From a virus (Duplodnaviria > Heunggongvirae > Uroviricota > Caudoviricetes), in the IMG/VR virus record IMGVR_UViG_2877958089_000004: DNA of 46,766 bases, one strand, 5' to 3'. Shown in pieces: positions 1,009 through 46,766 of this stretch (the stretch's first letter is position 1; the number at the start of each line of letters is the position of its first letter). Below the pieces are notes generated by a model. The model saw only the letters and a program-made list of their open reading frames with translations, was not told the DNA's origin and searched no databases. The position numbers and the translations under genes were made by a program.

Positions 1009-1083
1009 GTCCTCTTAGTTAAATGGATATAACGAGCCCCTCCTAAGGGCTAATTGCAGGTTCGATTCCTGCAGGGGACACCA
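1009..1083 (+). tRNA. argW: tRNA-Arg (anticodon CCU)
   Basis: 75-nt sequence GTCCTCTTAGTTAAATGG...GGGGACACCA; D-arm, anticodon loop CCCCTCCTAAGGG with CCT anticodon, T-arm GGTTCGATTCC and 3' CCA are all readable. Confidence 0.9.
1069..1083. repeat. attL core: 15-bp direct repeat CTGCAGGGGACACCA (tRNA 3' end)
   Basis: Exact 15-bp copy recurs at 45062-45076, downstream of the torI-like gene. Confidence 0.8.
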
Positions 1084-1244
1084 TTTATCAGTTCGCTCCC
1101 ATCCGTACCAGTCCGCAAAATCCCCTGAATATCAAGCCTTCCGTAGATTAACAGTTCGTAATGGTTCGCGTCAGATCGTTGACAGCCGCACTGCATGACG
1201 GGTAAAAAGTGGATAAAATAATTTTACCCACCGGATTTTTACCC

Positions 1245-2402: not shown

Positions 2403-2553
2403 TCCACCTTAACAACTATCGAATAGCACAAAGCCTTGCAATCCAGTGCAAAGATTTGTGTGTCAGAGTTTTTCTCATCAACTACCGCAAGTATCGATCG
2501 ATTGAGACTTGGATGATAGACTTCATGCCTTTGATTATTAGCTGATAGAAGAA

Positions 2554-2916
2554 ATGTTAAAGCTATTTGCAAAGTACACCTCGATTGGTGTGCTGAACAC
2601 ACTTATACACTGGGTGGTTTTTGGTGTATGTATCTATGCCGCGCATACCAATCAGGCTCTGGCAAACTTCGCAGGTTTTGTTGTGGCTGTGAGTTTTAGC
2701 TTCTTCGCGAATGCAAAATTCACATTCAAAGCATCGACTACAACGATGCGCTACATGTTATATGTCGGGTTCATGGGAACACTGAGTGCAACTATTGGAT
2801 GGGCTGCTGATAGATGTTCACTTCCTCCAATTGTCACTCTCGTCACCTTCTCCGCCATCAGCCTGGTGTGCGGTTTCGTCTATTCAAAGTTCATTGTCTT
2901 TAGGGATGCGAAATGA
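2554..2916 (+). CDS. gtrA: GtrA-family bactoprenol-linked glucose translocase (flippase)
   Basis: 120-aa small 4-TM protein, first gene of a three-gene gtr operon next to the integrase. Confidence 0.85.
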
Positions 2917-3830
2917 AGATATCTCTTGTAGTTCCTGTCTTCAATGAAGAAGAAGCGATACCAATTTTTTATAAAACGGTACGTGAATTCGAAGAGTTGA
3001 AGCCATATGAAGTGGAAATTGTTTTCATAAATGATGGAAGCAAAGACGCTACGGAGTCAATTATTAATGCTATGGCTGTTTCAGATCCCCTAGTTGTTCC
3101 GCTGTCATTTACGCGCAACTTTGGTAAAGAACCAGCATTGTTTGCAGGGTTAGACCATGCAACTGGCGATGCCGTGATTCCAATTGATGTTGACCTGCAA
3201 GACCCGATTGAGGTCATTCCTCATCTTATTGAAAAGTGGCAGGCAGGTGCTGATATGGTGCTGGCAAAGCGTTCAGACCGCTCTACAGATGGACGTCTAA
3301 AGCGAAAAACTGCTGAGTGGTTCTATAAGCTCCACAATAAAATAAGCAACCCAACGATTGAAGAGAATGTTGGTGATTTCCGGTTAATGAGCCGTGAGGT
3401 TGTCGAAAATATCAAGCTTATGCCAGAGCGCAACCTTTTTATGAAAGGGGTACTGAGTTGGGTAGGAGGATCGACCGACATCGTCGAATATTCCCGCGCA
3501 GAACGTGTTGCTGGTAATTCAAAATTCAATGGATGGAAATTGTGGAATCTTGCGCTCGAAGGGATTACAAGCTTCTCAACATTTCCCCTGCGCATATGGA
3601 CTTATATCGGGTTAGTGGTAGCTGTCCTAGCATTTCTGTATGGCGCATGGATGATATTTGACACGCTCGCATTTGGAAATGCTGTACGAGGATACCCTTC
3701 ACTGCTGGTGTCCATTCTGTTTCTTGGAGGAATACAACTAATCGGTATAGGCGTGCTCGGAGAGTATATAGGACGTATCTACATTGAAACAAAATCAAGA
3801 CCTAAATATATTTTGAAGGCCAGAAAATGA
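2913..3830 (+). CDS. gtrB: GtrB bactoprenol glucosyltransferase (family 2 glycosyltransferase)
   Basis: 305 aa; N-terminal GT2 domain (VVPVFNEEE...DGSKD...DVDLQDP) with C-terminal TM segments; start overlaps the gtrA stop. Confidence 0.9.
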
Positions 3831-5257
3831 ATTTCAATTCTTTTTTTAAACAGCGAGTTACTATAATTATAGGATTGGCTTATGCATTGCCTATAGTTTT
3901 GAATGGCATCGATTACATTGATGATATGGGTAGGGCCATATCTGGGTATGGATGGAGTGACGACGGTAGATTTGTATCAACTTTATTAATGCAGATATTG
4001 TCATTTAGCGACAAAGTATTGCCACTTTTCCCTTATGCGACTATATTATCTGTAATAATAACATGCTTTTCAGGATTCATTATTTCAGAATTATTTTTCA
4101 AACATTCTAAATATAAATTTATTTTTTCTTTAGTGTTACTAACATCACCTTTTTTTCTTGAAAACCTATCATACAAGTATGATTCTCTACCTATGTCGCT
4201 TTCTGTTTTAATGGCAATAGTACCTTTTACATTATACAGAAATCATATATTTATCCCGATATCAATACTTTGTCTTGTTGCTGTATTGGGATTGTATCAG
4301 ACTACGTCTATGTTATATTTCGCCGTGACAATATGTATTATCATGTCTTCTGTATTAGACGGTAAAAATAAGACAGAATGTTTTAAATTAGCATGCAAGA
4401 CACTAGTGTCATTTGTTGTTGCATTTTTAATATATAAGTCATTAGTTCTTTTGCTAGCATTAAATGTTCCTCGCTCGCAATTTATAAGCATAAACAGCGA
4501 AATACTTAATTTATTAATAGAAAGAACAAAGCATTTCCATATAATGTTAAAGGCTCTTTTTGATAGTGGGTATTTTATTGCCTCAGCACCATTTGTAATT
4601 CTGTTTGCAATGTCTTTAGTTTATCTTCTGGCATTAAGAAAATCATTAACTATATTTTTCATTATAGTATTATGCTTTATGTCTTTGTTAATATTGACAA
4701 TGATGCCAAATATTTTGCTAAAGGAGATTTTTTACACAGCCAGAACTATGATTTGTTTTCCAGCAATTATTATTGCAATGCTTATAGTTATGGATCGATG
4801 TAAAATTGAAAACGTCAATAAGCTTTGCTTTATATTTGTTATATTATTAGTGAGTTACTCTTTTTCACTATCTGCAAAACTTGGGGCCGTAATAAAAAAT
4901 AACAATGAGGCTAGCAATTACTTTGCGGGAAGAATAACCTCTGATATCTCAACGATAGATTCGTCGGATACTTACAAAATTGTAATCTCTGGTAGAGTAC
5001 CGATTAGCGCTAAAAGCAAGCTATTATATAATGAAACTCCATTTTTAAATTGGCTTGCCCCTGTTTATGCTTCTGGTGGTTGGGGGTGGGGGGTCGTAGA
5101 TCTTTCAAGATATGCAGATTTCAAATGGCAGGAAAATGAAACATTTATCCTACAAAACAAATGCCATATTGCTCCATTATTTAGCAATAAATTTTATGCC
5201 ATAAGAAAGAAAGATAACGTATATATTATAGATTTTAACTACAAAGATTGCATATAG
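3827..5257 (+). CDS. Serotype-specific O-antigen glucosyltransferase (GtrC-type polytopic membrane protein)
   Basis: 476-aa highly hydrophobic protein, strongly AT-rich, third gene of the gtrAB operon, where the variable serotype-specific enzyme lies. Confidence 0.7.
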
Positions 5258-5319: not shown

Positions 5320-7197
5320 TCAGTTAATCCTTATTTTTACAGCAGTTCCAGTTCTATATAACGCCCCAACACCGACACCGACACCGTAATTTTGCGGTGT
5401 ATCATCAGGCACATCCCTAAACACAAATCCTCTCAAAACATCTCCGCTATCGTATGCATAGTTATTAACATATGATCCTCCATTGACGCTCCTTGGTTTG
5501 TTAGATATAGAGTTATCTATTACTCTTGTTTCTGCGCCATCAGTATAAATAGAATACTGACCAGAGCAATCAACAAGCTGACCATCTATAGTAACTTTCC
5601 CTTTATTGTTAAGAACCTTAACAGCAGCAAGGCGCGGGCCATACATAGGGTAAGATGGATCTGGGGCATCGTTTGGGAATGTAGCATGAATAGTCCCATT
5701 AAAATATAAATCCATGTTGCTATTTGCTCCAAAAACCAATACTGCCGCATCATCATTTTTCAGGGAGCCGGCACCATTTATTTTCAACGAGCTAAATATA
5801 TTATTCACACCGTATCCAGATCCATCGCCAATAGCTACAATAGCGGCTCGTTTAAAAATATCAAACCACATACCTGTCATAGTTAACCATGACGTAGCGA
5901 CCATGTGAACACCTATACGACAATACTCTATTTTACCTCCAATAAACGAATTTCCGAAGTTTGGTCCACAAGCCACAGCCGCACCTCGATAATCATATAC
6001 ATCATCTTCGTCAAAATAAGTTTCCCCATGATAACCAATATCATTGAAATAGCAGCCTATGAAAATACTATCTGACAATGTAAATCGTGAAAGGATGCCA
6101 TTTTCTTTAAGAGTGGTAAACTGGCATAGTGTGACCCGCATTAAACCAGCCATATCAGAACGCAGACCAATTAATGCATCTCTAAAAACACAGGCCGTTA
6201 TCTCATGATTATGATAAGCAACTGTTTGCTGTGACCTGTCTCCATATTCAATACACGTGCAATTTGAAGCTGAGCCATCAATGTCAATATACGAAATAGA
6301 TGTCTGTTTTTTCTTTCTCACATCAACAATAGGATCTGCATATCCAATAGTATGGTCATCTGCTAGCTTAAGTGTAGATTTAAGATTAAAACCTGATGAA
6401 GAGTAAGCCCACGCAGATTTGATGCCTGTGAGAGCCTTGTTATCTTGCATAACTACAGGTGTCTTAATAAACAAATACCTGTCTACTAGCACCTCAACCC
6501 CATACGGACTGTTCAGAGCTTTATTTATTGGTATAGCGTTATCGGTTTCGGGACCTGGCTTAGCTCCGTAAAAAATCGCATTCAGAGGTCCATTGAAAGT
6601 CCCAGCATACAATCCATCCCTCACAACCTGACCTACCGCTCCAGTATTAATGACAATACCATCATCTGGATCTAGGTTTCGATTGCTGTAATATGTGAAA
6701 CGCCCCCCAGCTAAATCGCCAGTTTCGAATCCGTATTTCGCTATAATAATTGTTCCGTCTTCAAAATCATCTCCTGTTTCGGCAGCAATATCTACGTATC
6801 TGAATCCTAGTCCGCCAATAAGTGTATATCCATTTTCCCCTTCAATTAACCCCCTAAATTGATCTGGGTCATACTTAATTATGTTTGGATAGTAGAACTG
6901 CTGTGTACCATACGCATCATAAACAGCCATAGAATGGCCTTGCACAGTTACGAACTTGGCAATCTGTCCGTTATATACCGGATATCCAGCAGCATTAATG
7001 ATGATTGGTTGCGGAACAGGAACGTGAGAGCCGTCTTCGTTCTCCACATAAACCTGAATCTGGTTTTCAGGATTTACCGGGTCAGTGTCAATTTTACCGA
7101 TATAAATTTTGCCATTAGCTACGGCTTTAAAAGAACGCGCCATAGTGAAGAGTTGCGAAGGCATGCTTACCACAACATTTGCGGTGATATCTGACAT
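5320..7197 (-). CDS. Tailspike protein: P22-type head-binding N-terminus with a divergent receptor-binding domain
   Basis: N-terminus [46 protein letters not shown] closely matches the conserved P22/Sf6 tailspike head-binding domain; the rest differs from P22. Start placed at the ATG at 7197 with a GGAG RBS; the ORF track extends to 7245. Confidence 0.85.
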
Positions 7198-7318
7198 TTC
7201 ATTGCTCCAGACGAATGATATGATGCAACCATGAAGAGATTGCATACCGAAATGGTACTATTGAGTATTTATCCAGTAAGTTACGATGCCATTCCACCCA
7301 ACTGGTGAGGCATCAAGG

Positions 7319-7579
7319 ATGTACAGCAAATACGACGAGGCGCAGTTTCACTTGAGACTTCCGCATGAACTCCACGCGAAAATTAAACAGCGCGCGAAGA
7401 TGAATAACAGGTCGCTGAACTCAGAGATAATTGCAGCGATTGAAGAATCATTGGATAAACAAAGCTCTGCATCAGTTTACATTGACGATGCAGAGCGTAT
7501 GGCAGAACAACAATCGGATATGGTTAAGAAAATTGTCTTTGATACGCTCAAGAAGCTATATAAAAAAGACAGTAGCTAA
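7319..7579 (+). CDS. mnt: Mnt/Arc-family ribbon-helix-helix repressor
   Basis: 86 aa; FHLRLPHELHAKIKQRAKMNNRSLNSEII...AERMAEQQSDMVKKIVFDTLKKLYKK resembles P22 Mnt; lies between tailspike and gp16 homologues as in the P22 immI region. Confidence 0.7.
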   Translation: MYSKYDEAQFHLRLPHELHAKIKQRAKMNNRSLNSEIIAAIEESLDKQSSASVYIDDAERMAEQQSDMVKKIVFDTLKKLYKKDSS

Positions 7580-7596
7580 CCATCCGTGGCTTTCCG

Positions 7597-9930
7597 TTAC
7601 TTCTGGTTATCATCACTGTTCATCCAGTACATGATGCCTAGCCTTGATATGGTTTTCTTATCTGATTCTGGAAGTGAGTTGTAAAACGAGCGCCAAGCAG
7701 AAGAGCGTCTTACTGTTGTATCAACGATGCTTTCTGGTGCTTGTTTTACTGCCAGCCTTGCTGCTTTCTGGAATTCTGGTGAGCTAATTAGCTTTTCTGC
7801 AGATTCAATTGATTCAGCGCCGCCCATCGCCCTGATTTTGCTGGCGACTTTTGCCCCAATTTCTGACCCAGCAACAGCACCTACTGCACTGAACGGTCCT
7901 GACACAGTTGAACCAACCGCAGTGCCAATGCGTTGGGCATGGTTAGCAACAAATTCATTTGCCGCAGTGACGCGATTAAACCGTTTGACGAACTCGTTTA
8001 GTCTTCCTGTAGTTATCTCGTAAGATTTTGCATCTTTGATAGCCTTTGCGACCTTATATACATCGTTCAGACCTGACATAGTCTCTTTTGGTAAATGTCG
8101 GGCAAGATTGCGCATCTGCCCGTTTGCTAACATGTTTTGATACCAATCAGCAAACCCTGCAGGATTAAAATCAGCGCCACGTTTTCCGTTCGAAAGCATA
8201 TCCCGAAGACCTGTTCCCAGTAGCTCGGTTCTTAGCTTCCTGGACGGCGTGTTTTGCATCAATTCACGAAATCCTTTGGCATCGCCTTTCGACATTGCCT
8301 GTAGTGCTGTAGTTGCTTTGCGAGAAACATCACCGTTCAGCGTTCTGCCAGTTAGATTAATCATTTGCTCTTCCATGCTTTTTCGCATCTGAACAAGCCT
8401 CTGAGCAACTTCAAAATCACGTAATGCATTTGTCTCTGACAGCGCCGCCTTTTGATCATCGGCGAGCGAACCGTAAAGCCTCGATAAAGCAGCGCGATCA
8501 GCATCTTTATATGGTCCAGAATTCTTATGAAGTGCATCACCAACAAGTCGTCGTTGCTTATTGAGATTTGCATAAGTTAATGCGCCGTTCTTGCCTGGAT
8601 TAACTGCCCGAAAGACTCTCTTTTCAATAGGGTCAAGGTTTTTCATCCCGCCAAGATCTTCTGCCACCTGTTTGAGCATTGACCTTGTTGATGGCGCATC
8701 AATTTTTGCACCTGCAGGCATCGCCTTTTCAACATTGCGATAAAGCTGGTCGCTTCGTTTCATCAGCGCAGACATTCTTCCATTGACCGTATCAATAAAC
8801 TTGTCGCTCATACCAAGAGCATCTTTTGCACCGGAAACGCGATCAATTATCTCCCCCGCGCCCTGTGCTAGTTGCCTGATTGCTTCATTTTCCTGCACCC
8901 GTAGAGCAGAACCCGCACGGGACTTGATTGCTTGCTCAACTGCCTTGTATTGCTCGTTCCCGGAAAAGTGTGAAGGGAGTAATGAATCAACATTAAGCCT
9001 TTCAGCAGACTCCAGAACTTCAGCCTGAGGATTGATATCTAGTTCATCAAGCGATGAAGCGAGATTTGGCCTTTTTTGTGCTGCTACTGTGCGAACGACT
9101 TCCTCTGGGTTCCTCGTCGCAGGCGTCATTGGTACACCTTGTGCTACTCTTGCCTCTGCTGCATGAACCGCAGGATTTGTTGCTGCAGCGGAATGAACCG
9201 CAGGATTTGTTGCTGCAGCGGCATCACCGGAGAATGGTGATGTTTCTGTTGGCGAAGTGGTCGCTCTCTGTGCAGATGTTTTATTGCCACTAATTATATT
9301 TGATGCACCACGAACACCACGGGTAACGCCATTTATCAGGCCATGCGTAGCAATGTTAAGTCCGGCATTAATAGCGGCATTTTCGGCAAAATCACCCCGT
9401 TGATTCGCCGCGTCAGCGAGAGAACCAATGACCATGTTTCCAGCTACTCCTGCTCCAGGAACAAGATAACCGCCTATTGACTCTCCAGCTTGAGCGTAGG
9501 GGTCTGTCGGTCTGTCTACTGGGCGATAAACATCATCCAAAACCTTGGGGCCACCAAGCCCCTGGCTGATTGCATTAATCAGACTTGCGCCGCCCTGCAA
9601 CACGTCAAATGGTATGTTTACCAGACCTCGACCAGCCTGTTCTGCAATTTGCCCTGCACTTTGACCACCAGTGAGCCATTCTCCTGCACGCTGCATAAGT
9701 GATTTGTCTTGCTGAATGGTATCAGGAGATTGCCCTACTTCCTGCTGTTCTGTCTGCATTGAAGGCAATGGATAGGCATCATAGAAAGCTTGCTTAGCCT
9801 GCTCTGCATTTTCTCCGGCTTGCGGTGCCACGACTTCATTGAAGTATTGCTCCTGAGCCTGCGCTTTTTGTTCTGGTGCTAACGCCTGATACTGTGGAGA
9901 GGCGATAACATCTTTCCATGCTTTAGCCAT
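7597..9930 (-). CDS. DNA ejection/injection protein, P22 gp16-like
   Basis: 777-aa protein in the gp16 position (after gp20, before tailspike region); carries an internal 30-bp tandem duplication. Confidence 0.65.
9163..9221. repeat. In-frame 30-bp tandem duplication inside the gp16-like gene
   Basis: ATGAACCGCAGGATTTGTTGCTGCAGCGG occurs twice in tandem (encodes AATNPAVH twice). Confidence 0.8.
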
Positions 9931-12009: not shown

Positions 12010-12109
12010 NNNNNNNNNNNNNNNNNNNNNNNNNNNNNNNNNNNNNNNNNNNNNNNNNNNNNNNNNNNNNNNNNNNNNNNNNNNNNNNNNNNNNNNNNNN
12101 NNNNNNNNN
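12010..12109. other. Assembly gap (100 N)
   Basis: Run of exactly 100 N. Confidence 0.99.
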
Positions 12110-12452
12110 AGAGAATCCTTAGCGTTGTGGTGAATGCGGCTCAGCGCACGCGGGTTAAGGTTGAGGCTGACAGTCGACCTTCTGTGGATACCCACCCGCC
12201 TGGTGTGCAACCTTCGCCAGGCACCGGGAGGCACCCGGCACCACAACTTTATGCTGTGTGTAGTCCTGGCGGTACCAGTTTGTACCCTTGCTTCCGGCTG
12301 GTACCGTCCTTTTTTGCAAAACAGAGAAGAGCATCACCGGACGACGGGCTCATAACCCAATCCATCCGGGCGGCTGCCACCGCAGGTGTTCTTCTCTGTT
12401 TTGTGGAGAAACCAACCGACCTTGCAGGGTCGATATGATGAGGAGCAGCAAA

Positions 12453-12815
12453 ATGGCTAGCGAACGCAGTACTGATGTGCAGGCATTTATCGGGGAGCTG
12501 GACGGCGGCGTATTTGAAACCAAAATCGGCGCAGTTCTCAGTGAGGTCGCTTCCGGTGTGATGAACACGAAAACCAAAGGGAAGGTCTCACTCAATCTGG
12601 AAATCGAACCGTTTGATGAGAACCGTGTGAAAATCAAACACAAACTCTCATATGTTCGCCCAACTAACCGCGGGAAAATTTCCGAAGAAGACACCACCGA
12701 AACGCCGATGTATGTCAATCGCGGTGGTCGCCTGACTATTCTGCAGGAAGACCAGGGACAATTACTGACTCTTGCCGGTGAACCTGACGGAAAACTCCGC
12801 GCAGCAGGTCGTTAA
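12453..12815 (+). CDS. yfdP: YfdP-like hypothetical protein
   Basis: 120 aa from MASERSTDVQAFIGELDGG... with GAGGAG RBS 7 nt upstream; recognised as a homologue of E. coli K-12 CPS-53 YfdP. Confidence 0.7.
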   Translation: MASERSTDVQAFIGELDGGVFETKIGAVLSEVASGVMNTKTKGKVSLNLEIEPFDENRVKIKHKLSYVRPTNRGKISEEDTTETPMYVNRGGRLTILQEDQGQLLTLAGEPDGKLRAAGR

Positions 12816-12880
12816 TATCGTTCGTAATAAACTGATTATTTATCTCATCACTGAATATCTTTATATAGTGAGGACTTATT

Positions 12881-13705
12881 ATGTCTCAGAACTTAGACGC
12901 AACCGCAATTAATCAAATCCATGCCCTTATTTCTGCTCAGGGTGTTAATGAAATTATCAGTAAGATTGGTGCCGATGCTGTGGCATTGCCTGAGAATTTC
13001 CGCATTCATGATCTGGAAAAATTTAATTTAAATCGCTTCCGTTTCCGTGGTGCACTTTCCACTGCCAGCATCGATGATTTTACCCGTTATTCTAAAGATC
13101 TTGCAGATGAAGGCACCCGCTGCTTTATCGATGCCGATAATATGCGTGCCGTCAGTGTGCTTAACCTGGGTACTATTGATGAGCCAGGTCACGCAGATAA
13201 CACTGCCACTCTCAAACTGAAAAAGACAGCACCGTTCTCTGCTCTGTTGTCTGTTAACGGCGAGCGTAACTCCCAGAAGTCACTGGCAGAATGGATCGAA
13301 GACTGGGCCGACTACCTTGTGGGCTTTGATGCTAATGGTGACGCCATTCAAGCAACAAAAGCGGCTGCGGCAGTCCGTAAAATCACGATTGAAGCAAACC
13401 AGACCGCTGATTTTGAAGATAATGACTTCAGCGGCAAACGCTCCCTGATGGAGTCTGTCGAAGCGAAGACCAAAGACATTATGCCAGTGGCATTTGAATT
13501 TAAATGCGTTCCGTTTGAAGGTCTGAAAGAACGTCCGTTTAAATTACGCCTCAGCATTATCACTGGCGATCGTCCTGTACTGGTTCTGCGCATTATTCAG
13601 CTGGAAGCGGTGCAGGAAGAAATGGCTAACGAATTTCGTGATCTGCTTGTTGAGAAATTCAAAGACAGCAAAGTAGAAACCTTTATTGGTACTTTCACCG
13701 CCTGA
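12881..13705 (+). CDS. yfdQ: YfdQ-like protein (DUF2303 family)
   Basis: 274-aa ORF, same length and recognised similarity to K-12 CPS-53 YfdQ. Confidence 0.75.
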
Positions 13706-13718
13706 TTTCATTACTGCA

Positions 13719-13745
13719 AATGCCCCTGCGGGGGCATTTATGGAA
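13719..13745 (+). terminator. Hairpin downstream of yfdQ (possible intrinsic terminator)
   Basis: AAATGCCCCTGCGGGGGCATTTAT: GC stem GCCCC/GGGGC followed by a short T-rich tract. Confidence 0.45.
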
Positions 13746-13832
13746 ACGTAATTAACTCAATAATCACCGGATGGTGAGGGCTTCCTTTTACCAGAATTCA
13801 GCGCGGTGCAGTGCATATACGTGGAGAACAAA

Positions 13833-14369
13833 ATGTCATTTATTAAAACTTTTTCCGGGAAGCATTTTTATTATGACAAGATAAATAAAGACGACATCGA
13901 TATTAACGATATCGCGGTTTCCCTTTCAAATATCTGTCGCTTTGCCGGTCATCTTTCGCACTTCTACAGCGTCGCCCAACATGCGGTTCTTTGCAGCCAG
14001 CTGGTGCCGCAGGAATTTGCTTTTGAAGCGTTAATGCATGATGCAACAGAAGCGTATTGCCAGGACATTCCCGCACCACTGAAACGCCTTCTTCCTGACT
14101 ATAAACGGATGGAAGAAAAAATAGACGCCGTAATCCGTGAGAAATACGGGTTACCCCCAGTTATGAGTACACCCGTGAAATATGCCGATCTCATCATGCT
14201 GGCAACCGAACGCCGCGATCTCGGGCTTGATGATGGCTCTTTCTGGCCTGTACTGGAAGGCATCCCGGCAACAGAGATGTTCAACGTGATTCCACTGGCA
14301 CCGGGTCATGCCTACGGGATGTTTATGGAACGTTTTAACGATTTATCGGAGTTACGCAAATGCGCATGA
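13833..14369 (+). CDS. yfdR: HD-domain phosphohydrolase, YfbR-like 5'-deoxynucleotidase family (YfdR-like)
   Basis: 178 aa from MSFIKTFSGKHFYY...; HD motif region (…HSVAQHAVL…MHDATEAYCQDIP…); start at 13833 chosen over the upstream in-frame ATG at 13806 to match the 178-aa YfdR length. Confidence 0.75.
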   Translation: MSFIKTFSGKHFYYDKINKDDIDINDIAVSLSNICRFAGHLSHFYSVAQHAVLCSQLVPQEFAFEALMHDATEAYCQDIPAPLKRLLPDYKRMEEKIDAVIREKYGLPPVMSTPVKYADLIMLATERRDLGLDDGSFWPVLEGIPATEMFNVIPLAPGHAYGMFMERFNDLSELRKCA

Positions 14370-14722
14370 ATGTTTTCGAAATGGAAGGGTTTCTTCGCGG
14401 GAAATGTGTACCGCGAGATCTGAAAGTGAACGAAACAAATGCTGAGTACCTGTTACGTAAATTCGACGCGCTTGAAGCTAAATGTGCGGCACTGGAAAAC
14501 AAAATAATACCAGTGTCAGCTGAACTGCCACCAGCAAATGAAAGTGTTCTGTTATTTGATGCTAATGGAGAAGGCTGGCTGATTGGCTGGCGTTCTCTCT
14601 GGTACACCTGGGGACAAAAAGAAACCGGAGAATGGCAGTGGACATTTCAGGTCGGGGACCTTGAAAACGTCAATATCACTCACTGGGCAGTAATGCCAAA
14701 AGCACCGGAGGCTGGAGCATAA
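14360..14722 (+). CDS. yfdS: YfdS-like hypothetical protein
   Basis: 120-aa ORF overlapping the yfdR stop; N-terminal domain paralogous to the ORF at 41557-42102. Confidence 0.7.
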   Translation: MRMNVFEMEGFLRGKCVPRDLKVNETNAEYLLRKFDALEAKCAALENKIIPVSAELPPANESVLLFDANGEGWLIGWRSLWYTWGQKETGEWQWTFQVGDLENVNITHWAVMPKAPEAGA

Positions 14723-14729
14723 TGACCAC

Positions 14730-14829
14730 NNNNNNNNNNNNNNNNNNNNNNNNNNNNNNNNNNNNNNNNNNNNNNNNNNNNNNNNNNNNNNNNNNNNNNN
14801 NNNNNNNNNNNNNNNNNNNNNNNNNNNNN
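14730..14829. other. Assembly gap (100 N)
   Basis: Run of exactly 100 N. Confidence 0.99.
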
Positions 14830-27578: not shown

Positions 27579-27937
27579 ACGTTCTCCAGTTCGGTGATTT
27601 TTATTCCAAGCCTTCCGCCTGGTACTTTCACGCCACGAATTACGCGAATGTCATCGAATTGCTCGTCGTCTTCCGCAAATCCGGCGTGGATAAGGGAGTC
27701 GAGTAAACCTTTAAGAATGTTGTCGAGGTCGCGGCGGCGGGAGTCTGGAACGTCTGCGATGACTTTGATACGGAGCCGTGATTTGGTGAAAATATCTAAC
27801 TTGAGTTGGCGGATGATTTGCTGAACGTCTTTTCGGTATTTCTGGCCTTTATCGCTGATGTAGTATTGGCTTCCCCTTCTTCGCCAGTAGGTGTTCAGCG
27901 ACGGCGGGTATGGAAGCACAAACTGATATTCGTTCAT
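27575..27937 (-). CDS. rusA: RusA-family Holliday junction resolvase
   Basis: 120 aa with LPYPPSLNTYW and RRRDLDN motifs characteristic of RusA. Confidence 0.85.
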   Translation of the reverse strand: MNEYQFVLPYPPSLNTYWRRRGSQYYISDKGQKYRKDVQQIIRQLKLDIFTKSRLRIKVIADVPDSRRRDLDNILKGLLDSLIHAGFAEDDEQFDDIRVIRGVKVPGGRLGIKITELENV

Positions 27938-28224
27938 GGCTTAATCTTCCCCTCCTTCAGCAGTATCGCCTGCGTCCTGATCACGCCTTCGAGGTGGTAA
28001 AGTCTGGCGTCTTTGTTGTCGAGATTATGGGTGCGTCGGTCGATCTCCGCGTGGCAGTCACTACAAGCCCATGCACCGATCAGGTCGTCAGGCTTCATTC
28101 CAGTTCCGCAAATTCCAGCCATCCGGTAATGTGCCAGAACTGTAGTTTCAGGATTGCCATTGCATACGCCGTAAATACGTACCTGGCATTCTCTGCCGCG
28201 TGCTTCTTTGCGTAGATTAGCCAT
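27934..28224 (-). CDS. ybcO: YbcO-like protein (DUF1364, putative nuclease)
   Basis: 96 aa; GRECQVRIYGVCNGNPETTVLAH...CSDCHAEIDRRTH resembles DLP12 YbcO. Confidence 0.75.
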   Translation of the reverse strand: MANLRKEARGRECQVRIYGVCNGNPETTVLAHYRMAGICGTGMKPDDLIGAWACSDCHAEIDRRTHNLDNKDARLYHLEGVIRTQAILLKEGKIKP

Positions 28225-28946
28225 TAAGCAGCCTCCCCTGTTACTTTCAGCATTCCGTTATCGAGCAGCTTTCTGGTCAGCCACTGTTGACCACGCCCGG
28301 TGATTTTTGTGGTGAACGATATCTGTATTCCGTGATTTGTGTTGACCGCTGTTTCTTTTACGGTGAAATAGCCGCGATCCATATATTCCTGCATTGGCAC
28401 ATTTCGCCGGGAACCTGAAGCAATAAGGATTTTGTGATCACGCATCCACGCAAACAGTTTGTTTGGACCAATACCGACAACCTTTGCAAAGTTTCCAATC
28501 AAAATTCCGCTGGCCTCGCCAACGCGATCGGCAAACTCAACTTTAGGTGCGGCAATTGCGAGCTGGTTTTCCAGTTGCATTTTCTGCTCAGCAAGGTCAG
28601 CAGCAAGGCGCAACGCTTCCGGTAGCGTTTTGGGGATATTAACCGCAGCTTCTTCAAGCTCTCGCCAGCGGTCAACAAGGCGAGCGGTGAACTCTGGCGA
28701 CAACTGGGCAACAACGACAATACTGTCTCGCTTACCTTGTTCGCCCTCGAAGACGTAATGCTCGTACTGAACATTGAACCCTAAGTTATTGATTCTTTCG
28801 GAAACCTCAATTTGAGGAAGCCGGATAACACCATTTTTAGCCAGCGTTTCGATGGTACGTTTCACATTGTCATGACGCTTACCAACCAACTCAGCGATTT
28901 CAATGCTTGTCATTTTGATGGCATTGCCATTTATTAACTCATTCAT
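28224..28946 (-). CDS. Phage antirepressor-like protein (Rha N-terminal domain + KilAC C-terminal domain)
   Basis: 240 aa; N-terminal Rha-type region and C-terminal KilA-C/ANT-type region; sits in the nin region. Confidence 0.65.
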   Translation of the reverse strand: MNELINGNAIKMTSIEIAELVGKRHDNVKRTIETLAKNGVIRLPQIEVSERINNLGFNVQYEHYVFEGEQGKRDSIVVVAQLSPEFTARLVDRWRELEEAAVNIPKTLPEALRLAADLAEQKMQLENQLAIAAPKVEFADRVGEASGILIGNFAKVVGIGPNKLFAWMRDHKILIASGSRRNVPMQEYMDRGYFTVKETAVNTNHGIQISFTTKITGRGQQWLTRKLLDNGMLKVTGEAA

Positions 28947-29109
28947 CGTCTTCTTCCTCGTACATTGAGCTATTCGGATCGCTCATCAGCTCTGCGCAGC
29001 AATCGGAGCACACGTGAACTTCCAGCATATGCAGCTTCTGACCGCAATTAGCGCACGTTAAAGCCCGCTCGACGCTTTGTTGTTCGTAACTTCGATTTGG
29101 GTCAATCAC
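28939..29109 (-). CDS. ninF: NinF-like small zinc-binding protein
   Basis: 56-aa ORF (GTG start) ending …[44 protein letters not shown], close to lambda NinF; stop overlaps the downstream ATG (ATGAATGA). Confidence 0.6.
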
Positions 29110-29284: not shown

Positions 29285-29815
29285 TCATGCCGCCCTCCTG
29301 GCGCCCTGCCCGATCGCCATCAATGCCGATTTGGATACGGTAGTAAACATCCGTCGAGGACTGATGAACGGTCGCCAAATCAGCAGCATTGAGCCTTTGC
29401 TGTTTCCCTTCTTCTCCAGCCCCGTCGATGGTTCGATAAAATTAATCCGTCCATCAGTGATAATGCGAACTTCGTCGACACTCTCCAGAGCCTTGCTGAA
29501 CCATCCGACTGACATATCCTCTGGCACAAGCATAACTACCGTCTGTCGCTGTTGTATGCTCTGCTCAGCGGCTTTTTCCACCCACGGCCTGATATTGCTG
29601 TACGGTGGGTTATTCCAGATTGCACCGTGGCTTATCCACTCAGAATTGAGTGCGTCGTCGGCCTCAGTTAGCCAGTGAGCGCACAGAGCATTTTTGTCGC
29701 TCGCAGCTGAATCCAGCCAGAATCCAAACTCAATATCCAGCGCATCAAAAAGCCAAAGCGGCGTTTGCCAGCAGTCTCTAACTTCTTTTGGTGTTTCTGA
29801 TTTATGCTTAATCAT
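29285..29815 (-). CDS. dam: Phage orphan DNA N6-adenine methyltransferase (Dam family)
   Basis: 176 aa with catalytic NPPY motif (…[11 protein letters not shown]…) and the N-terminal [12 protein letters not shown] region typical of phage Dam; no adjacent restriction endonuclease gene. Confidence 0.8.
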
Positions 29816-30340
29816 TCAACCCTCGCATATTGTCCGTGATATTTGTTGATAGCCTCACTGGCAACCAAACCAGCAAGCTCAAGATCTTCATAGAACCCAA
29901 AATGCAACCGGCCAAAATCTGTGCGCACTTGAACGGCCCATTTATTTTTTTTGCTTGTTCCATAAAACATTTTTTATTCCAGAACGGCTATTGCACTTAG
30001 TTTTCTGATTTCGGCTGTTTGCTATCCGGCTTGCCTCCCTAAGATTTTTTGGGGAATTGTCCAGCCTGTTTCCGTTAATATGGTCAATATTTTTCAATGG
30101 CATTCTTTTGTTGTGCAGCGCAAAAACAACTACGTGAACAAACATCTGAATGCCTGCAAAACACACCTGTCTATACCCAGATCCATTTATCGATGTTTTA
30201 ATTTCATCTCCGGCCCGGTGGCTGTGGTTGGGGTGTTTTAGCGAGTCCTTTTTGTACCTGACTGTATCTCCGTCTAAATACAGATAATCCTCAATAAGCC
30301 GATACCTATCTGACGCTGGCGTATTTGATTTGATAGTCAT
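29812..30340 (-). pseudogene. HNH (HNH_3) + AP2-domain endonuclease gene, frameshifted at a homopolymer
   Basis: HNH region (…HVVVFALHNKRMPLKNIDHINGNRLDNSPKNL…) ends in a stop inside an 8-nt T run (29945-29952); the AP2-like region (WAVQVRTDFGRLHFGFYEDLELAGLVASEAINKYHG) continues in the +1 frame to a stop overlapping the dam start. Confidence 0.7.
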
Positions 30341-30783
30341 GCAGCCTTCCCTTTTCGTTGTGACCATTCATACTCTCGCCGGGAGTCATCACTCCACCGC
30401 ACGTTGCGCTCTGAGCCGAACCAGAACATGATTTCGATAAGCTCAGTCATGTTGGCCTTTCGCATTTTGCTGGTACGCACGCCAAGCATGACAACGCCAC
30501 CGTCGATACCAGGCGCACTTCTTTGCTCCAGTTTTTTTGTCTTAAGCCACAGGGCAGTGAACAGATCTTTCCAGTCCTCCGGCGCAAGTCTCTTTCCATG
30601 CCAAAGCACCTGACGTGATACGTCCTGCAATAACGCCCACATAAGGCGGTTTTGAGGATTACTCCGCTTGGGTTCTTTAACGTGGACTTCGTGGGGTGAT
30701 TTGTCGTCGATGGGAAGTGAGAGTATTGCGTCTATGGCGTTGTTTCTGATTTCTTCGTTGCGAAGCATGTATATTTGCTTCAT
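30337..30783 (-). CDS. ninB: NinB/Orf-family recombination mediator
   Basis: 148 aa; …NPQNRLMWALLQDVSRQVLWHGKRLAPEDWKDLFTA… parallels lambda NinB. Confidence 0.85.
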   Translation of the reverse strand: MKQIYMLRNEEIRNNAIDAILSLPIDDKSPHEVHVKEPKRSNPQNRLMWALLQDVSRQVLWHGKRLAPEDWKDLFTALWLKTKKLEQRSAPGIDGGVVMLGVRTSKMRKANMTELIEIMFWFGSERNVRWSDDSRREYEWSQRKGKAA

Positions 30784-31610: not shown

Positions 31611-32222
31611 TTATCTGTTTTTAACACGCTTTCGAGTCCTTTTAGATTTTTCCTTAAGATATTCCGCAAGTTTATCCTCATCATTATTAAATTGAGATAA
31701 AAGCTCATGCTCGCAATTAAGTGCTTTACTCGCATAAGTTCCATATAGTTTCTTTCTTGCTAGTGCTGCTATGAATGCTGCATCTTCTTTGCTATCGAAA
31801 TACCCTAACGATATTGTCTTATTTTTATAACCAACATAAGACTTCCACCTGCCAGTTGGCTTATACCAAGACACTCCAATTGCACCGGATGTGTTTAATC
31901 TATTCCCTACAATGTTTCTTGCATTCTGCTCTTCTGTTGCCAGTCTTAGATTTGAAATCCTATTGTCAAGTCTGTTCCCATTTACATGATCAATAAACTT
32001 AGGAGGCCATTTTTTGTATACATAGAACCAAGCAAGTCTATGCGCATAATACAAAACATTATTTATGCTAATGCATATATAACCACCACTAACACCTCCA
32101 GCAATACTACCTTTTACTCTTACTACTGAATTTGTTTTTAGCCATTTAAATATTCCTGTTTCTGAGTCATATGATAATGTTGACAGAAGCTCATCGTGAT
32201 CAATTAGTTTTTTTATTCGCAT
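31611..32222 (-). CDS. HNH (HNH_3) + AP2-domain homing endonuclease-like protein
   Basis: 203 aa; HNH region (…YAHRLAWFYVYKKWPPKFIDHVNGNRLDNRISNLRLAT…) followed by AP2-like region (GVSWYKPTGRWKSYVGYKNKTISLGYFDSKEDAAFIAALARKKLYG); locally AT-rich. Confidence 0.75.
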   Translation of the reverse strand: MRIKKLIDHDELLSTLSYDSETGIFKWLKTNSVVRVKGSIAGGVSGGYICISINNVLYYAHRLAWFYVYKKWPPKFIDHVNGNRLDNRISNLRLATEEQNARNIVGNRLNTSGAIGVSWYKPTGRWKSYVGYKNKTISLGYFDSKEDAAFIAALARKKLYGTYASKALNCEHELLSQFNNDEDKLAEYLKEKSKRTRKRVKNR

Positions 32223-35621: not shown

Positions 35622-36338
35622 ATGGAAAATAAAAAATCACTGACGACAGAACAGCTCGAAGACGCTAAGCGGCTTAAGGCTTTGTATGAGTCAAAAAAGA
35701 AAGAATTGGGAATAACCCAATACTCAATCGCTGATGAACTGGGTATCACCCAAGGAGCGGTAGGGCATTATCTTAATGGCAGAAACGCGCTAAACGTTGA
35801 GGTCGCATCTGGTTTTGCACGTTTGTTGCAAGTCTCAATTGCTGATTTTAGCCAGTCAATTGCTGCCAAGGTTGCAGAACAGGCAGAAAGCCTTAAGAGC
35901 GATGCCAACGTAAGGTATGCAGGGGAATACAGAGCAGGAAAGAGGTATCCGGTGTTAAGCAGTATCCAGGCTGGCTCGTGGTGTGAAGCATGCGAACCAT
36001 ACACCATTAAAGACATAGATGTTTGGCTTGAGTCTGACGCGCATATTCAAGGCAATGCGTTCTGGCTTAAAGTGGAAGGTGATTCAATGACGGCACCGGT
36101 TGGGTTAAGCATTCCAGAGGGAACATTTGTTCTTTTCGATACCGGAAGGGAGGCGATCAACGGCAGCCTGGTCATAGCAAAACTTTCTGACTCTAACGAA
36201 GCAACATTCAAGAAGCTGATAATCGACGGCGGAAATAAATACCTCAAGGGACTTAACCCTGCATGGCCTCTCGTGCCAATCAATGGAAACTGCAAGATTA
36301 TAGGCGTTGCAATTGAGACAAAACTAAGGCTGGTTTGA
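35622..36338 (+). CDS. cI: CI-type prophage repressor (HTH + S24 LexA-like autopeptidase)
   Basis: 238 aa; N-terminal HTH (…ITQYSIADELGITQGAVGHYLNGR…), C-terminal S24 domain with Ser (…VEGDSMTAP…) and Lys (…ATFKKL…). Confidence 0.9.
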   Translation: MENKKSLTTEQLEDAKRLKALYESKKKELGITQYSIADELGITQGAVGHYLNGRNALNVEVASGFARLLQVSIADFSQSIAAKVAEQAESLKSDANVRYAGEYRAGKRYPVLSSIQAGSWCEACEPYTIKDIDVWLESDAHIQGNAFWLKVEGDSMTAPVGLSIPEGTFVLFDTGREAINGSLVIAKLSDSNEATFKKLIIDGGNKYLKGLNPAWPLVPINGNCKIIGVAIETKLRLV

Positions 36339-45518: not shown

Positions 45519-46766
45519 CTATATTGCTGAAGGTACAGGCGTTTCCATAACTATTTGCTCGCGTTTTTTACTCAAGAAGAAAATGCCAAATAGCAACATC
45601 AGGCAGACAATACCCGAAATTGCGAAGAAAACTGTTTGGTAGCCTGCGTGGTCAAAGAGTATCCCAGTCGGCGTTGAAAGCAGCACAATCCCAAGCGAAC
45701 TGGCAATTTGAAAACCAATCAGAAAGATCGTCGACGACAGGCGCTTATCAAAGTTTGCCACGCTGTATTTGAAGACGGATATGACACAAAGTGGAACCTC
45801 AATGGCATGTAACAACTTCACTAATGAAATAATCCAGGGGTTAACGAACAGCGCGCAGGAAAGGATACGCAACGCCATAATCACAACTCCGATAAGTAAT
45901 GCATTTTTTGGCCCTACCCGATTCACAAAGAAAGGAATAATCGCCATGCACAGCGCTTCGAGTACCACCTGGAATGAGTTGAGATAACCATACAGGCGCG
46001 TTCCTACATCGTGTGATTCGAATAAACCTGAATAAAAGACAGGAAAAAGTTGTTGATCAAAAATGTTATAGAAAGACCACGTCCCCACAATAAATATGAC
46101 GAAAACCCAGAAGTTTCGATCCTTGAAAACTGCGATAAAATCCTCTTTTTTTACCCCTCCCGCATCTGCCGCTACGCACTGGTGATCCTTATCTTTAAAA
46201 CGCATGTTGATCATCATAAATACAGCGCCAAATAGCGAGACCAACCAGAAGTTGATATGGGGACTGATACTAAAAAATATGCCGGCAAAGAACGCGCCAA
46301 TAGCATAGCCAAAAGATCCCCAGGCGCGCGCTGTTCCATATTCGAAATGAAAATTTCGCGCCATTTTTTCGGTGAAGCTATCAAGCAAACCGCATCCCGC
46401 CAGATACCCCAAGCCAAAAAATAGCGCCCCCAGAATTAGACCTACAGAAAAATTGCTTTGCAGTAACGGTTCATAAACGTAAATCATAAACGGTCCGGTC
46501 AAGACCAGGATGAAACTCATACACCAGATGAGCGGTTTCTTCAGACCGAGTTTATCCTGAACGATGCCGTAGAACATCATAAATAGAATGCTGGTAAACT
46601 GGTTGACCGAATAAAGTGTACCTAATTCCGTCCCTGTCAACCCTAGATGTCCTTTCAGCCAAATAGCGTATAACGACCACCACAGCGACCAGGAAATAAA
46701 AAAGAGAAATGAGTAACTGGATGCAAAACGATAGTACGCATTTCTGAATGGAATATTCAGTGCCAT
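45519..46766 (-). CDS. cscB: Sucrose:H+ symporter, LacY-like MFS oligosaccharide permease
   Basis: 415-aa 12-TM protein starting at the last window base; recognised as CscB of the csc sucrose cluster; downstream genes lie outside the window. Confidence 0.8.
   Translation of the reverse strand: MALNIPFRNAYYRFASSYSFLFFISWSLWWSLYAIWLKGHLGLTGTELGTLYSVNQFTSILFMMFYGIVQDKLGLKKPLIWCMSFILVLTGPFMIYVYEPLLQSNFSVGLILGALFFGLGYLAGCGLLDSFTEKMARNFHFEYGTARAWGSFGYAIGAFFAGIFFSISPHINFWLVSLFGAVFMMINMRFKDKDHQCVAADAGGVKKEDFIAVFKDRNFWVFVIFIVGTWSFYNIFDQQLFPVFYSGLFESHDVGTRLYGYLNSFQVVLEALCMAIIPFFVNRVGPKNALLIGVVIMALRILSCALFVNPWIISLVKLLHAIEVPLCVISVFKYSVANFDKRLSSTIFLIGFQIASSLGIVLLSTPTGILFDHAGYQTVFFAISGIVCLMLLFGIFFLSKKREQIVMETPVPSAI

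What the first reader, a model, noticed from the sequence alone, without database searches (positions are those of the whole stretch)
28224..28946. Rha/KilAC antirepressor-like gene in the nin region while the immI region is reduced to an orphan mnt
Between tailspike and gp16, where P22 carries mnt-arc-ant, only an Mnt-like RHH gene remains (7319-7579); no arc or ant is present there. A Rha+KilAC antirepressor-like protein is instead encoded in the nin region. The target of the orphan Mnt-like repressor is therefore unclear.
Basis: partly seen in the sequence, partly recalled or inferred. Interest (0 to 1): 0.4.

Follow-up and report, generated by a model that had tools for sequence, protein, structure and literature searches.

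The report
Ordinary roi gene plus orphan Mnt repressor
The flagged gene is roi, a common gene of lambda-like phages that has nothing to do with the missing arc-ant genes; the lone Mnt repressor keeps its own conserved binding site beside its own promoter, an arrangement already described in many P22-like phages.

Summary

**roi.** Gene 28224-28946 (-) encodes a 240-aa Rha + KilAC protein. It is roi: 100% identical to phage N7, 98.8% to CUS-3 Roi and 88% to the studied HK022 Roi. It sits in the usual ninF-roi-ybcO-rusA-ninH-Q order, with start and stop overlapping its neighbours, so there is no room for its own promoter or operator. About 18% of complete E. coli genomes carry it.

**mnt.** Between tailspike and gp16 only mnt remains (7319-7579, +; 49% identical to P22 Mnt). 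No arc or ant occurs anywhere in the window. The literature already describes this "mnt-only ant moron" in phages L, ST64T and ST104. Sf101 and IME10 have the same module.

**No link between them.**
- IME10 and Sf101 have this Mnt but no roi.
- CUS-3 has roi and ant together.

**The Mnt target.** A 15-bp palindrome (7244-7258) lies 2 bp upstream of the Pmnt -35, exactly where P22 has Omnt. It is conserved across genera, changes together with the Mnt recognition strand, and occurs only once in the window.

Mnt most likely regulates its own promoter. Both parts of the finding are already known, so interest is low.

The parts
28224..28946 (-). roi: 240-aa protein with an N-terminal Rha domain and a C-terminal KilAC/ANT domain
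   Evidence: Pfam. 100% aa identity to phage N7, 99.2% to Stx2 phage 86 Roi, 98.75% to CUS-3 Roi and 88.4% to HK022 Roi. PHROG 63.
28939..29109 (-). ninF; its stop overlaps the roi ATG (GACGATGAATGA), so roi has no upstream intergenic space
   Evidence: Pfam NinF; sequence.
27934..28224 (-). ybcO/hkbD (DUF1364 putative nuclease); its start overlaps the roi stop
   Evidence: Pfam YbcO 1.4e-43; same order in CUS-3.
28782..28794 (-). IHF consensus match (AATCAATAACTTA) inside roi; the only one between 27 and 31 kb
   Evidence: Regex scan. The relevance rests on my recollection that HK022 Roi binds its own gene next to an IHF site. Function was not tested.
7319..7579 (+). Orphan mnt-like gene: 86-aa ribbon-helix-helix repressor with the Mnt tetramerisation tail
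   Evidence: Pfam; PDB 1mnt and 1qey. Identical in IME10 and 96.5% in Sf101. dN/dS 0.09-0.15.
7244..7258 (.). Putative Mnt operator: imperfect 15-bp palindrome ATACCGAAATGGTAC (consensus GTACCNAAANGGTAC), positional homologue of P22 Omnt
   Evidence: Same 2-bp offset from the Pmnt -35 as in P22. Conserved in Escherichia, Buttiauxella, Citrobacter and Serratia loci and in phage JEP4. The only TACC-N5-GGTA in the window. Changes together with the recognition strand.
7261..7287 (+). Pmnt homologue: -35 TTGAGT (7261-7266), 15-nt spacer, -10 TACGAT (7282-7287)
   Evidence: Present at the same place in every orphan locus, with a 17-nt spacer outside this subgroup, and aligned with P22 Pmnt. Promoter activity was not tested.
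7285..7314 (.). Invariant inverted repeat GATGCC-N18-GGCATC between the Pmnt -10 and the mnt ribosome-binding site; role unknown
   Evidence: Identical arms in 8 diverse orphan loci with no covariation.
5320..7197 (-). Tailspike gene (P22 gp9-type head-binding domain); its real start at 7197 is 47 bp from the operator
   Evidence: Pfam Head_binding; MSDITANVV start. The tailspike gene is the left neighbour of the operator in 71 of the 72 IMG/VR loci that have an identifiable left neighbour.
7597..9930 (-). gp16 DNA-transfer protein gene, convergent with mnt (17-bp gap)
   Evidence: Similarity to Sf101 and HK620 gene 16.
35622..36338 (+). CI/C2-type prophage repressor (HTH + S24 self-cleaving peptidase); SOS induction would need no antirepressor
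   Evidence: Pfam Peptidase_S24 and HTH_3.

Best explanation
Two unrelated, ordinary modules of a P22-like prophage integrated at argW.

(1) Gene 28224-28946 is roi, a delayed-early nin-region gene. It would be transcribed from PR only after the prophage repressor has gone and N antitermination has occurred. It is translationally coupled to ninF and ybcO. It is a two-domain regulator: an Rha-type DNA-binding N-terminus and a KilAC C-terminus. In HK022 the protein binds DNA and interferes with lytic growth when IHF is absent. It is neither the replacement for P22 Ant nor a target of Mnt.

(2) The ant moron has been reduced to mnt plus its control region. The Mnt-like tetramer most likely binds the single palindrome at 7244-7258. 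That site abuts the -35 of its own promoter and lies 47 bp upstream of the tailspike gene. This forms a self-contained autoregulatory unit expressed from the prophage.

Shown here: identities, gene order, absence of arc and ant, a single conserved operator that changes with the recognition strand, and purifying selection on mnt.

Inferred: that Mnt binds this site, the sign of the autoregulation, and when roi is expressed.
For: roi:
- Domain hits.
- 88-100% identity to named Roi proteins, including the experimentally studied HK022 protein.
- Same ninF-roi-hkbD-rus-ninH-Q order as CUS-3, and the same region in HK97 and HK140.
- Overlapping start and stop codons and no LexA box nearby.
- Found in 971 of 5426 complete E. 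coli genomes, always flanked by NinF and DUF1364 in the listed rows.

Independence from immI:
- CUS-3 has roi plus ant plus two mnt genes.
- Stx phages carry separate ant genes next to roi.
- IME10 and Sf101 have this Mnt without roi.

mnt:
- The palindrome has the same 2-bp offset from the Pmnt -35 as P22 Omnt.
- It is conserved in loci chosen by protein similarity from five genera.
- Three specificity classes pair a recognition strand with a half-site: PHFNFRMP with GGTCCAC, PQFNLRLP with AGACCAC, and AQFHLRLP with GTACC.
- All 44 distinct Mnt proteins found next to this operator carry QFHLRL or QLHLRL.
- There is one site per window and one per locus.
- dN/dS is 0.09-0.15, and the ORF is intact in 75 of the 82 operator-bearing loci with enough downstream sequence.

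Literature: mnt-only ant morons are described in ST64T, ST104 and L (PMC2629481; 10.1101/2020.10.05.325894).
Against: - No binding or expression data exist for this Mnt class.
- In this subgroup the Pmnt spacer is only 15 nt, which is a poor promoter geometry.
- An operator centred near -48 does not by itself explain either repression or activation. In P22 the stimulation of Pmnt is thought to come from silencing the overlapping Pant, which is degenerate here (8/12 against 11/12 consensus matches).
- The operator always sits directly before the tailspike gene (71 of 72 loci with an identifiable left neighbour), which hints at a role beyond autoregulation.
- For roi, the databases call the family 'anti-repressor' (PHROG 63, PGAP), and P1 Ant, a real antirepressor, shares the KilAC domain. 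An antirepressor activity cannot be excluded by sequence.
Confidence: 0.75

Rival explanations
1. Roi is the functional substitute for the lost P22 Ant. On this view it is an antirepressor that moved to the nin region and remains under Mnt control.
For: The KilAC/ANT and Rha domains carry 'antirepressor' labels. arc and ant are missing from immI.
Against: - There is no similarity to P22 Ant (E 0.1).
- No operator-like site lies near roi, and roi has no upstream intergenic DNA.
- Roi coexists with a P22-type Ant in CUS-3.
- An identical orphan Mnt occurs in IME10 with no Roi at all.
- roi also occurs in phages that never had an immI region, such as HK97, HK022 and Stx phages.
Confidence: 0.02
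2. Roi is a lytic-phase modulator that acts in trans, independently of Mnt. It might work as an antirepressor on co-resident prophage repressors, or as an AriS-like damper of the SOS response through its KilAC domain.
For: In Listeria AriS the KilAC domain alone inhibits the SOS response, and pRha+KilAC is listed as one AriS-like architecture (PMC9043618). P1 Ant also carries a KilAC domain; this comes from the discussion in that paper and from my own knowledge.
Against: [quoted passage not shown]
- Homologues occur in phage ICP1 and in Salmonella phages such as f18SE and vB_SenS-Ent2. To my knowledge these are virulent phages with no repressor to counteract.
- Similarity to the Firmicute proteins is about 30-39%, so transferring their function is weak.
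Confidence: 0.15
3. The orphan Mnt controls tailspike transcription. It would do so either by repressing a weak remnant of Pant that now reads straight into gene 9, or by blocking non-antiterminated read-through into gene 9 in the lysogen.
For: - The operator lies 46-63 bp upstream of the tailspike start in most of the 71 IMG/VR loci where the tailspike is the left neighbour; a few have a gap of about 600 bp.
- The positional homologue of Pant survives as ATGGCA-17-AATACT, 8/12 consensus matches, with the operator just downstream.
- The literature notes that the P22 ant moron affects tailspike level (PMC2629481).
Against: - The leftward promoter is no better than background. The standard scan finds none at 9/12 or above, and it is not conserved across subgroups.
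- Q-modified polymerase should pass a bound repressor.
- Adjacency to gene 9 may simply be what a single ancestral arc-ant deletion left behind.
Confidence: 0.15
4. The orphan mnt is a functionless relic of a decayed immI region.
For: arc, ant and a strong Pant are gone. The phage L authors raise this possibility. The Pmnt spacer here is only 15 nt.
Against: - dN/dS is 0.09-0.15.
- The ORF is intact in 75 of the 82 operator-bearing loci with enough downstream sequence.
- The recognition strand is invariant in 44 distinct proteins.
- The operator palindrome is kept across genera while its flanks diverge.
- The module is in 224-407 of 5426 E. coli genomes.
Confidence: 0.08

Closest known systems
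Roi of coliphage HK022 (and HK97, CUS-3 and Stx-phage Roi)
   Same: 88-100% aa identity over the full length. Same Rha+KilAC architecture. Same place in the nin region between ninF and ybcO/hkbD. An IHF consensus lies inside the gene.
   Different: Nothing of substance. It is a new allele in a P22-like prophage. Binding to its own gene and the IHF-dependent phenotype were not tested here.
P22 immI region (mnt-arc-ant, Omnt/Oarc, Pant/Pmnt, sar)
   Same: mnt is in the same place and orientation between genes 16 and 9. It has an RHH domain plus the Mnt tetramerisation tail. A palindromic operator lies 2 bp from the Pmnt -35.
   Different: There is no arc, ant or sar. Pant is degenerate. The operator sequence differs (GTACC half-sites instead of GGTCCAC), and so do the recognition residues (Q-H-R instead of H-N-R).
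mnt-only 'ant morons' of phages L, ST64T, ST104, ST160, Gally, Sf101 and IME10
   Same: Same reduced arrangement. Sf101 and IME10 share the very same module (96.5-100% Mnt identity).
   Different: L, ST160 and Gally use a different operator class (AGACCAC) and keep the ant terminator hairpin before gene 9. L, ST160 and Gally also carry one or two extra ORFs between mnt and gene 16; the window has none.
AriS-like dual-function regulators (Listeria phi10403S)
   Same: A variable N-terminal regulatory domain (AntA/B, Bro-N or pRha) joined to a C-terminal KilAC domain.
   Different: The similarity is distant. SOS inhibition has been shown only for Listeria proteins, and the genomic position differs.

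Membership tests
Roi (HK022-type nin-region DNA-binding protein) | Full-length sequence similarity to HK022 Roi | tested here: met
   88.4% over 240 aa; 98.75% to CUS-3 Roi; 99.2% to Stx2 phage 86 Roi.
Roi (HK022-type nin-region DNA-binding protein) | Located between P and Q in the nin region | tested here: met
   Order ninF-roi-ybcO-rusA-ninH-Q, identical to CUS-3.
Roi (HK022-type nin-region DNA-binding protein) | IHF site within or next to the Roi binding site inside the gene | tested here: inconclusive
   One WATCAANNNNTTR match at 28782-28794. The published site could not be read because PMC178163 is not held.
Roi (HK022-type nin-region DNA-binding protein) | Binds DNA; blocks lytic growth on IHF-deficient hosts | not testable with these tools
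   Needs an experiment.
P22-type antirepressor Ant (immI) | Homology to P22 Ant | tested here: not met
   tblastn best E 0.07-0.11 over 37 aa. Pfam reports only the ANT/KilAC and Rha families above their curated cut-offs, so no P22 antirepressor family was found.
P22-type antirepressor Ant (immI) | Transcribed from Pant under Mnt and Arc operators between genes 16 and 9 | tested here: not met
   The gene is in the nin operon with no upstream gap, and there is no operator nearby.
P22-type antirepressor Ant (immI) | Binds and inactivates the C2/CI repressor | not testable with these tools
   Needs an experiment.
AriS-like KilAC regulators | N-terminal AntA/B, Bro-N or pRha domain plus C-terminal KilAC domain | tested here: met
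   Pfam Phage_pRha 12-99 and ANT 126-228; architecture list in PMC9043618.
AriS-like KilAC regulators | KilAC domain inhibits the SOS response | not testable with these tools
   Needs an experiment.
Mnt repressor family | Ribbon-helix-helix N-domain plus C-terminal Mnt tetramerisation coiled coil | tested here: met
   Pfam Arc and Repressor_Mnt; PDB 1mnt at 7.5e-19 and 1qey at 4.4e-8.
Mnt repressor family | Palindromic operator abutting the -35 of Pmnt | tested here: met
   7244-7258, 2 bp from TTGAGT as in P22. Binding itself was not tested.
Mnt repressor family | P22 Omnt sequence specificity | tested here: not met
   No match to AGGTCCACGGTGGACCT with up to 3 mismatches. The recognition strand is AQFHLRLP instead of PHFNFRMP.
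Mnt repressor family | Represses Pant, and so arc-ant | tested here: not met
   No arc or ant. The Pant homologue is degenerate at 8/12.

The most novel reading that the evidence does not exclude
The orphan Mnt and its operator are not a relic. They would be a conserved stand-alone switch placed directly in front of the tailspike gene. On this reading Mnt made in the lysogen keeps tailspike expression off, by repressing a residual promoter or blocking read-through, or it guards the prophage in trans. Three operator/recognition-strand specificity classes would have evolved for this purpose.
Probability: 0.15. Interest if true: 0.4.

Novelty: already known. Interest (0 to 1): 0.12.

Why it matters
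It matters little. roi is a long-named gene found in roughly a fifth of complete E. coli genomes, and mnt-only ant morons have been described since 2008.

There are two modest gains:
- The 'antirepressor' label on roi should not be read as a relocated P22 Ant.
- Orphan Mnt proteins keep a matching operator and are under purifying selection. This makes the published question of whether mnt is a relic or has a new function testable with a simple binding and reporter experiment.

Tried and rejected
- **P22 Omnt search.** Allowing up to 3 mismatches, there were no hits. This Mnt class has a different specificity.
- **Window operator search.** With up to 3 mismatches there were 11 hits against 10 expected by chance, and none between 27 and 31 kb.
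- **LexA-box search.** Hit counts were at chance level and nothing lay near roi.
- **Promoter and terminator scan of 7000-7800.** Nothing above background.
- **RNA hairpin idea for GATGCC-N18-GGCATC.** The arms are invariant and show no covariation, and the 5' arm overlaps the -10, so it is probably not part of the mnt mRNA. It remains unexplained.
- **Structure of Roi.** PDB sequence search gave no hits. The single-sequence AlphaFold model was useless (pLDDT 41), so no fold search was run.
- **Clerget and Boccard 1996 (PMC178163).** Not held. Details of Roi binding therefore rest on citations in other papers and on my memory.
- **The search for related loci with the Mnt alignment.** It returned only near-identical loci, so there is no unbiased census across all Mnt classes.
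- **Repeats inside roi.** Nothing interpretable.
- **Apparent yfdP-S insertion that truncates gp7 and gp14.** Rejected as real, because it is flanked by two runs of 100 N.

Full report
**Setting.** The window is a P22-like (Lederbergvirus-type) prophage integrated at tRNA-Arg(CCT) (1009-1083). Host genes flank it: a formate/nitrite-transporter family gene (1-933) and a LacY-family gene (45519-46766). The integrase and gtrA-gtrB-gtrII genes follow the tRNA. The late genes run on the minus strand from about 24.3 kb down to the tailspike gene (5320-7197). The cro-cII-replication-nin-Q genes run on the minus strand from about 35.5 to 26.9 kb. The CI-like repressor (35622-36338) and the early-left genes are on the plus strand.

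**Observation check.** The ORF at 28224-28946 (-) encodes 240 aa. It has a Phage_pRha domain (residues 12-99, E 6.3e-9) and an ANT/KilAC domain (126-228, E 7.7e-33). Its neighbours are NinF, YbcO, RusA and a Dam methylase, so it lies in the nin region.

Between the tailspike gene and gp16 (7597-9930) the only gene is 7319-7579 (+). It has Arc-type RHH and Repressor_Mnt domains, is 48.8% identical to P22 Mnt, and matches PDB 1mnt and 1qey. tblastn with P22 Arc, P22 Ant, CUS-3 Ant, JEP4 KilA and JEP4 Rha finds nothing anywhere in the window. The flanking gaps of 121 and 17 bp cannot hold an arc gene. One correction: the listed tailspike ORF is over-extended, and the real start is 7197 (MSDITANVV).

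**What the nin gene is.** It is roi.
- The protein is 100% identical to the 'DNA-binding protein' of phage N7 and 99.2% identical to Roi of Stx2 phage 86.
- It is 98.75% identical to CUS-3 Roi and 88.4% identical over its full length to Roi of HK022, the protein that was studied experimentally.
- The DNA is 95-97% identical to the same region of HK140, N7 and HK97.
- CUS-3, another P22-like phage, has the identical order ninF-roi-hkbD(ybcO)-rus-ninH-Q.
- The gene is in 971 of 5426 complete E. coli genomes at 80% coverage or more. In the listed rows it is flanked by NinF and DUF1364 and is named 'phage antirepressor KilAC domain-containing protein' by PGAP.

The roi ATG lies inside the last codons of ninF (GACGATGAATGA), and the ybcO start overlaps the roi stop. 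There is therefore no upstream intergenic DNA for a promoter or operator, and no LexA box is nearby. By established lambdoid biology the nin operon is read from PR after N antitermination, which happens only once the repressor is already gone.

Papers that cite Clerget and Boccard (1996) describe Roi as a DNA-binding protein implicated in, or inhibiting, lytic growth in IHF mutants. The original paper could not be read. One IHF consensus lies inside the gene at 28782-28794.

The KilAC domain has one experimentally shown activity in the papers found and read here: inhibition of the SOS response by Listeria AriS. That study lists pRha+KilAC as one of the AriS-like architectures.

Full-length homologues occur in Salmonella phages such as f18SE and vB_SenS-Ent2, and partial ones in Vibrio phage ICP1. 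To my knowledge these are virulent phages with no repressor to counteract.

**Is roi linked to the state of immI?** No.
- CUS-3 carries roi together with a P22-type ant and two mnt genes.
- Stx phages carry separate ant genes next to roi.
- HK022 and HK97 have roi and no immI region.
- IME10, whose Mnt is 100% identical to the window protein and lies in the same orphan arrangement, has no Roi, Ant or Arc homologue in its whole genome.
- Sf101 (Mnt 96.5% identical) has a ninF-ninG-ninH-phosphatase-Q nin region without roi.

**What the orphan mnt is.** The arrangement is already known. Villafane et al. [quoted passage not shown] Annotated phages with mnt directly beside the tailspike gene include L, ST160, Gally, JEP4, Sf101 and IME10. 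The tailspike-start/mnt module of the window is in 224 complete E. coli genomes at 80% coverage or more, and in 407 at any coverage, out of 5426.

**The target of Mnt.** In the 121-bp gap there is an imperfect 15-bp palindrome, ATACCGAAATGGTAC (7244-7258). It is followed after 2 bp by TTGAGT, then 15 nt, then TACGAT. In P22, Omnt (GGTCCACCGTGGACC) is followed after 2 bp by the Pmnt -35 TTGAGA, and the two regions align column for column.

Loci chosen only by Mnt protein similarity keep the palindrome while the flanks diverge. These come from Escherichia sp., E. coli, Buttiauxella, Citrobacter and Serratia, plus phage JEP4. The consensus is GTACCNAAANGGTAC, and Buttiauxella has a perfect copy.

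The operator changes together with the DNA-reading beta strand:

| Phages | Recognition strand | Operator half-site |
|---|---|---|
| P22, epsilon34 (CUS-3's second Mnt shares the strand; its operator was not examined) | PHFNFRMP | GGTCCAC |
| L, ST160, Gally | PQFNLRLP | AGACCAC |
| window, Sf101, IME10, JEP4 | AQFHLRL(P/T) | GTACC |

A pattern scan of IMG/VR with the operator plus the start of Pmnt returned 80 loci.
- In 71 of the 72 loci with an identifiable left neighbour, the tailspike N-terminus lies to the left of the operator and Mnt lies 76-88 bp to its right. The tailspike start is 46-63 bp away in most and about 600 bp away in a few.
- None of the 80 has arc or ant between the operator and the tailspike gene.
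- All 44 distinct accompanying Mnt proteins carry QFHLRL or QLHLRL.
- The ORF is intact in 75 of the 82 operator-bearing loci with enough downstream sequence (this count also includes JEP4 and the five genome-derived loci).
- dN/dS is 0.09-0.15.

TACC-N5-GGTA occurs only once in the 46.8-kb window, against 0.11 expected by chance. It also occurs once per locus in relatives that carry KilA/Rha-type genes on the other side of mnt. Relaxed searches find nothing near roi.

The positional homologue of Pant has decayed from 11/12 consensus matches in P22 to 8/12 or fewer, and it is not conserved between subgroups. The standard promoter scan finds nothing there.

**Mechanism.** The best-supported reading is that Mnt is a functional, prophage-expressed tetrameric repressor whose only site is next to its own promoter. 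That makes it a self-contained autoregulatory unit left behind after arc-ant was lost.

Binding, and whether the effect is positive or negative, are inferred. Three points leave room for a second role in tailspike transcription, as the literature has suggested for P22. The spacer is only 15 nt. The operator sits near -48. The operator is constantly next to gene 9. I rate that second role at about 0.15. A pure relic is unlikely given the selection signals.

The prophage repressor has an S24 self-cleavage domain, so SOS induction needs no antirepressor.

**Verdict.** Both halves of the finding are real, but both are known and they are unrelated to each other. The finding is of low interest. The only small addition is the operator/recognition-strand covariation, which shows that orphan Mnt proteins are still working DNA-binding proteins.

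Noticed in passing
window 12010-12109, 12110-14729, 14730-14829: Two runs of exactly 100 N flank a 2,620-bp piece that is 100% identical to the CPS-53/KpLE1 segment yfdP-yfdQ-yfdR-yfdS. The piece sits between gp14 and gp7 on the opposite strand. This looks like a scaffolding mis-join, not an insertion. The apparent truncations of gp7 (starts at residue 29 of IME10 gp7) and gp14 (ends at residue 117) are gap artefacts.
   Followed up: yes
window 7285-7314: An inverted repeat GATGCC-N18-GGCATC lies between the Pmnt -10 and the mnt ribosome-binding site. Its arms are invariant in all orphan-mnt loci examined, including those with a different Mnt operator class, and it is absent from P22. There is no covariation, so an RNA hairpin cannot be told apart from a protein-binding site. 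On the late (minus) transcript it would form a hairpin just before the tailspike gene.
   Followed up: partly
window 5320-7245: The mechanical tailspike ORF starts 16 codons too early, at 7245. The conserved start MSDITANVV with a GGAG ribosome-binding site is at 7197. This widens the mnt-tailspike gap to 121 bp.
   Followed up: yes
window 7319-7579; RefSeq records of P22, Sf101, ST160, epsilon34: Mnt homologues are widely mislabelled 'partition protein ATPase' in RefSeq phage records and in PHROG 795. This is an annotation error that hides orphan mnt genes.
   Followed up: partly
L006 (JEP4) 2770-4690; L014 4308-6467; L015; about 18 IMG/VR loci such as L021, L031, L061; L035 carries a P22-type Ant where the others have the Rha/Bro-like gene: A subgroup with the same Mnt/operator class carries KilA-type and Rha/Bro-type antirepressor-like genes on the gp16 side of mnt. 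One locus has a P22-type Ant. These genes converge on mnt and have their own extra RHH regulators. The Mnt operator is not found at their control region.
   Followed up: partly
window 29942-30367 and 31611-32222: Two HNH endonuclease genes lie in the replication/nin region, and the second has an added AP2 domain. They look like homing-endonuclease insertions.
   Followed up: no
window 1009-5257: The prophage sits at argW, the CPS-53 site. The order is int, then gtrA, gtrB and a GtrII-type glucosyltransferase, directly followed by the tailspike gene. This is an O-antigen modification cassette.
   Followed up: no
window 29285-29815: A phage Dam-type N6-adenine methyltransferase gene lies in the nin region, upstream of ninE, ninF and roi.
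   Followed up: no
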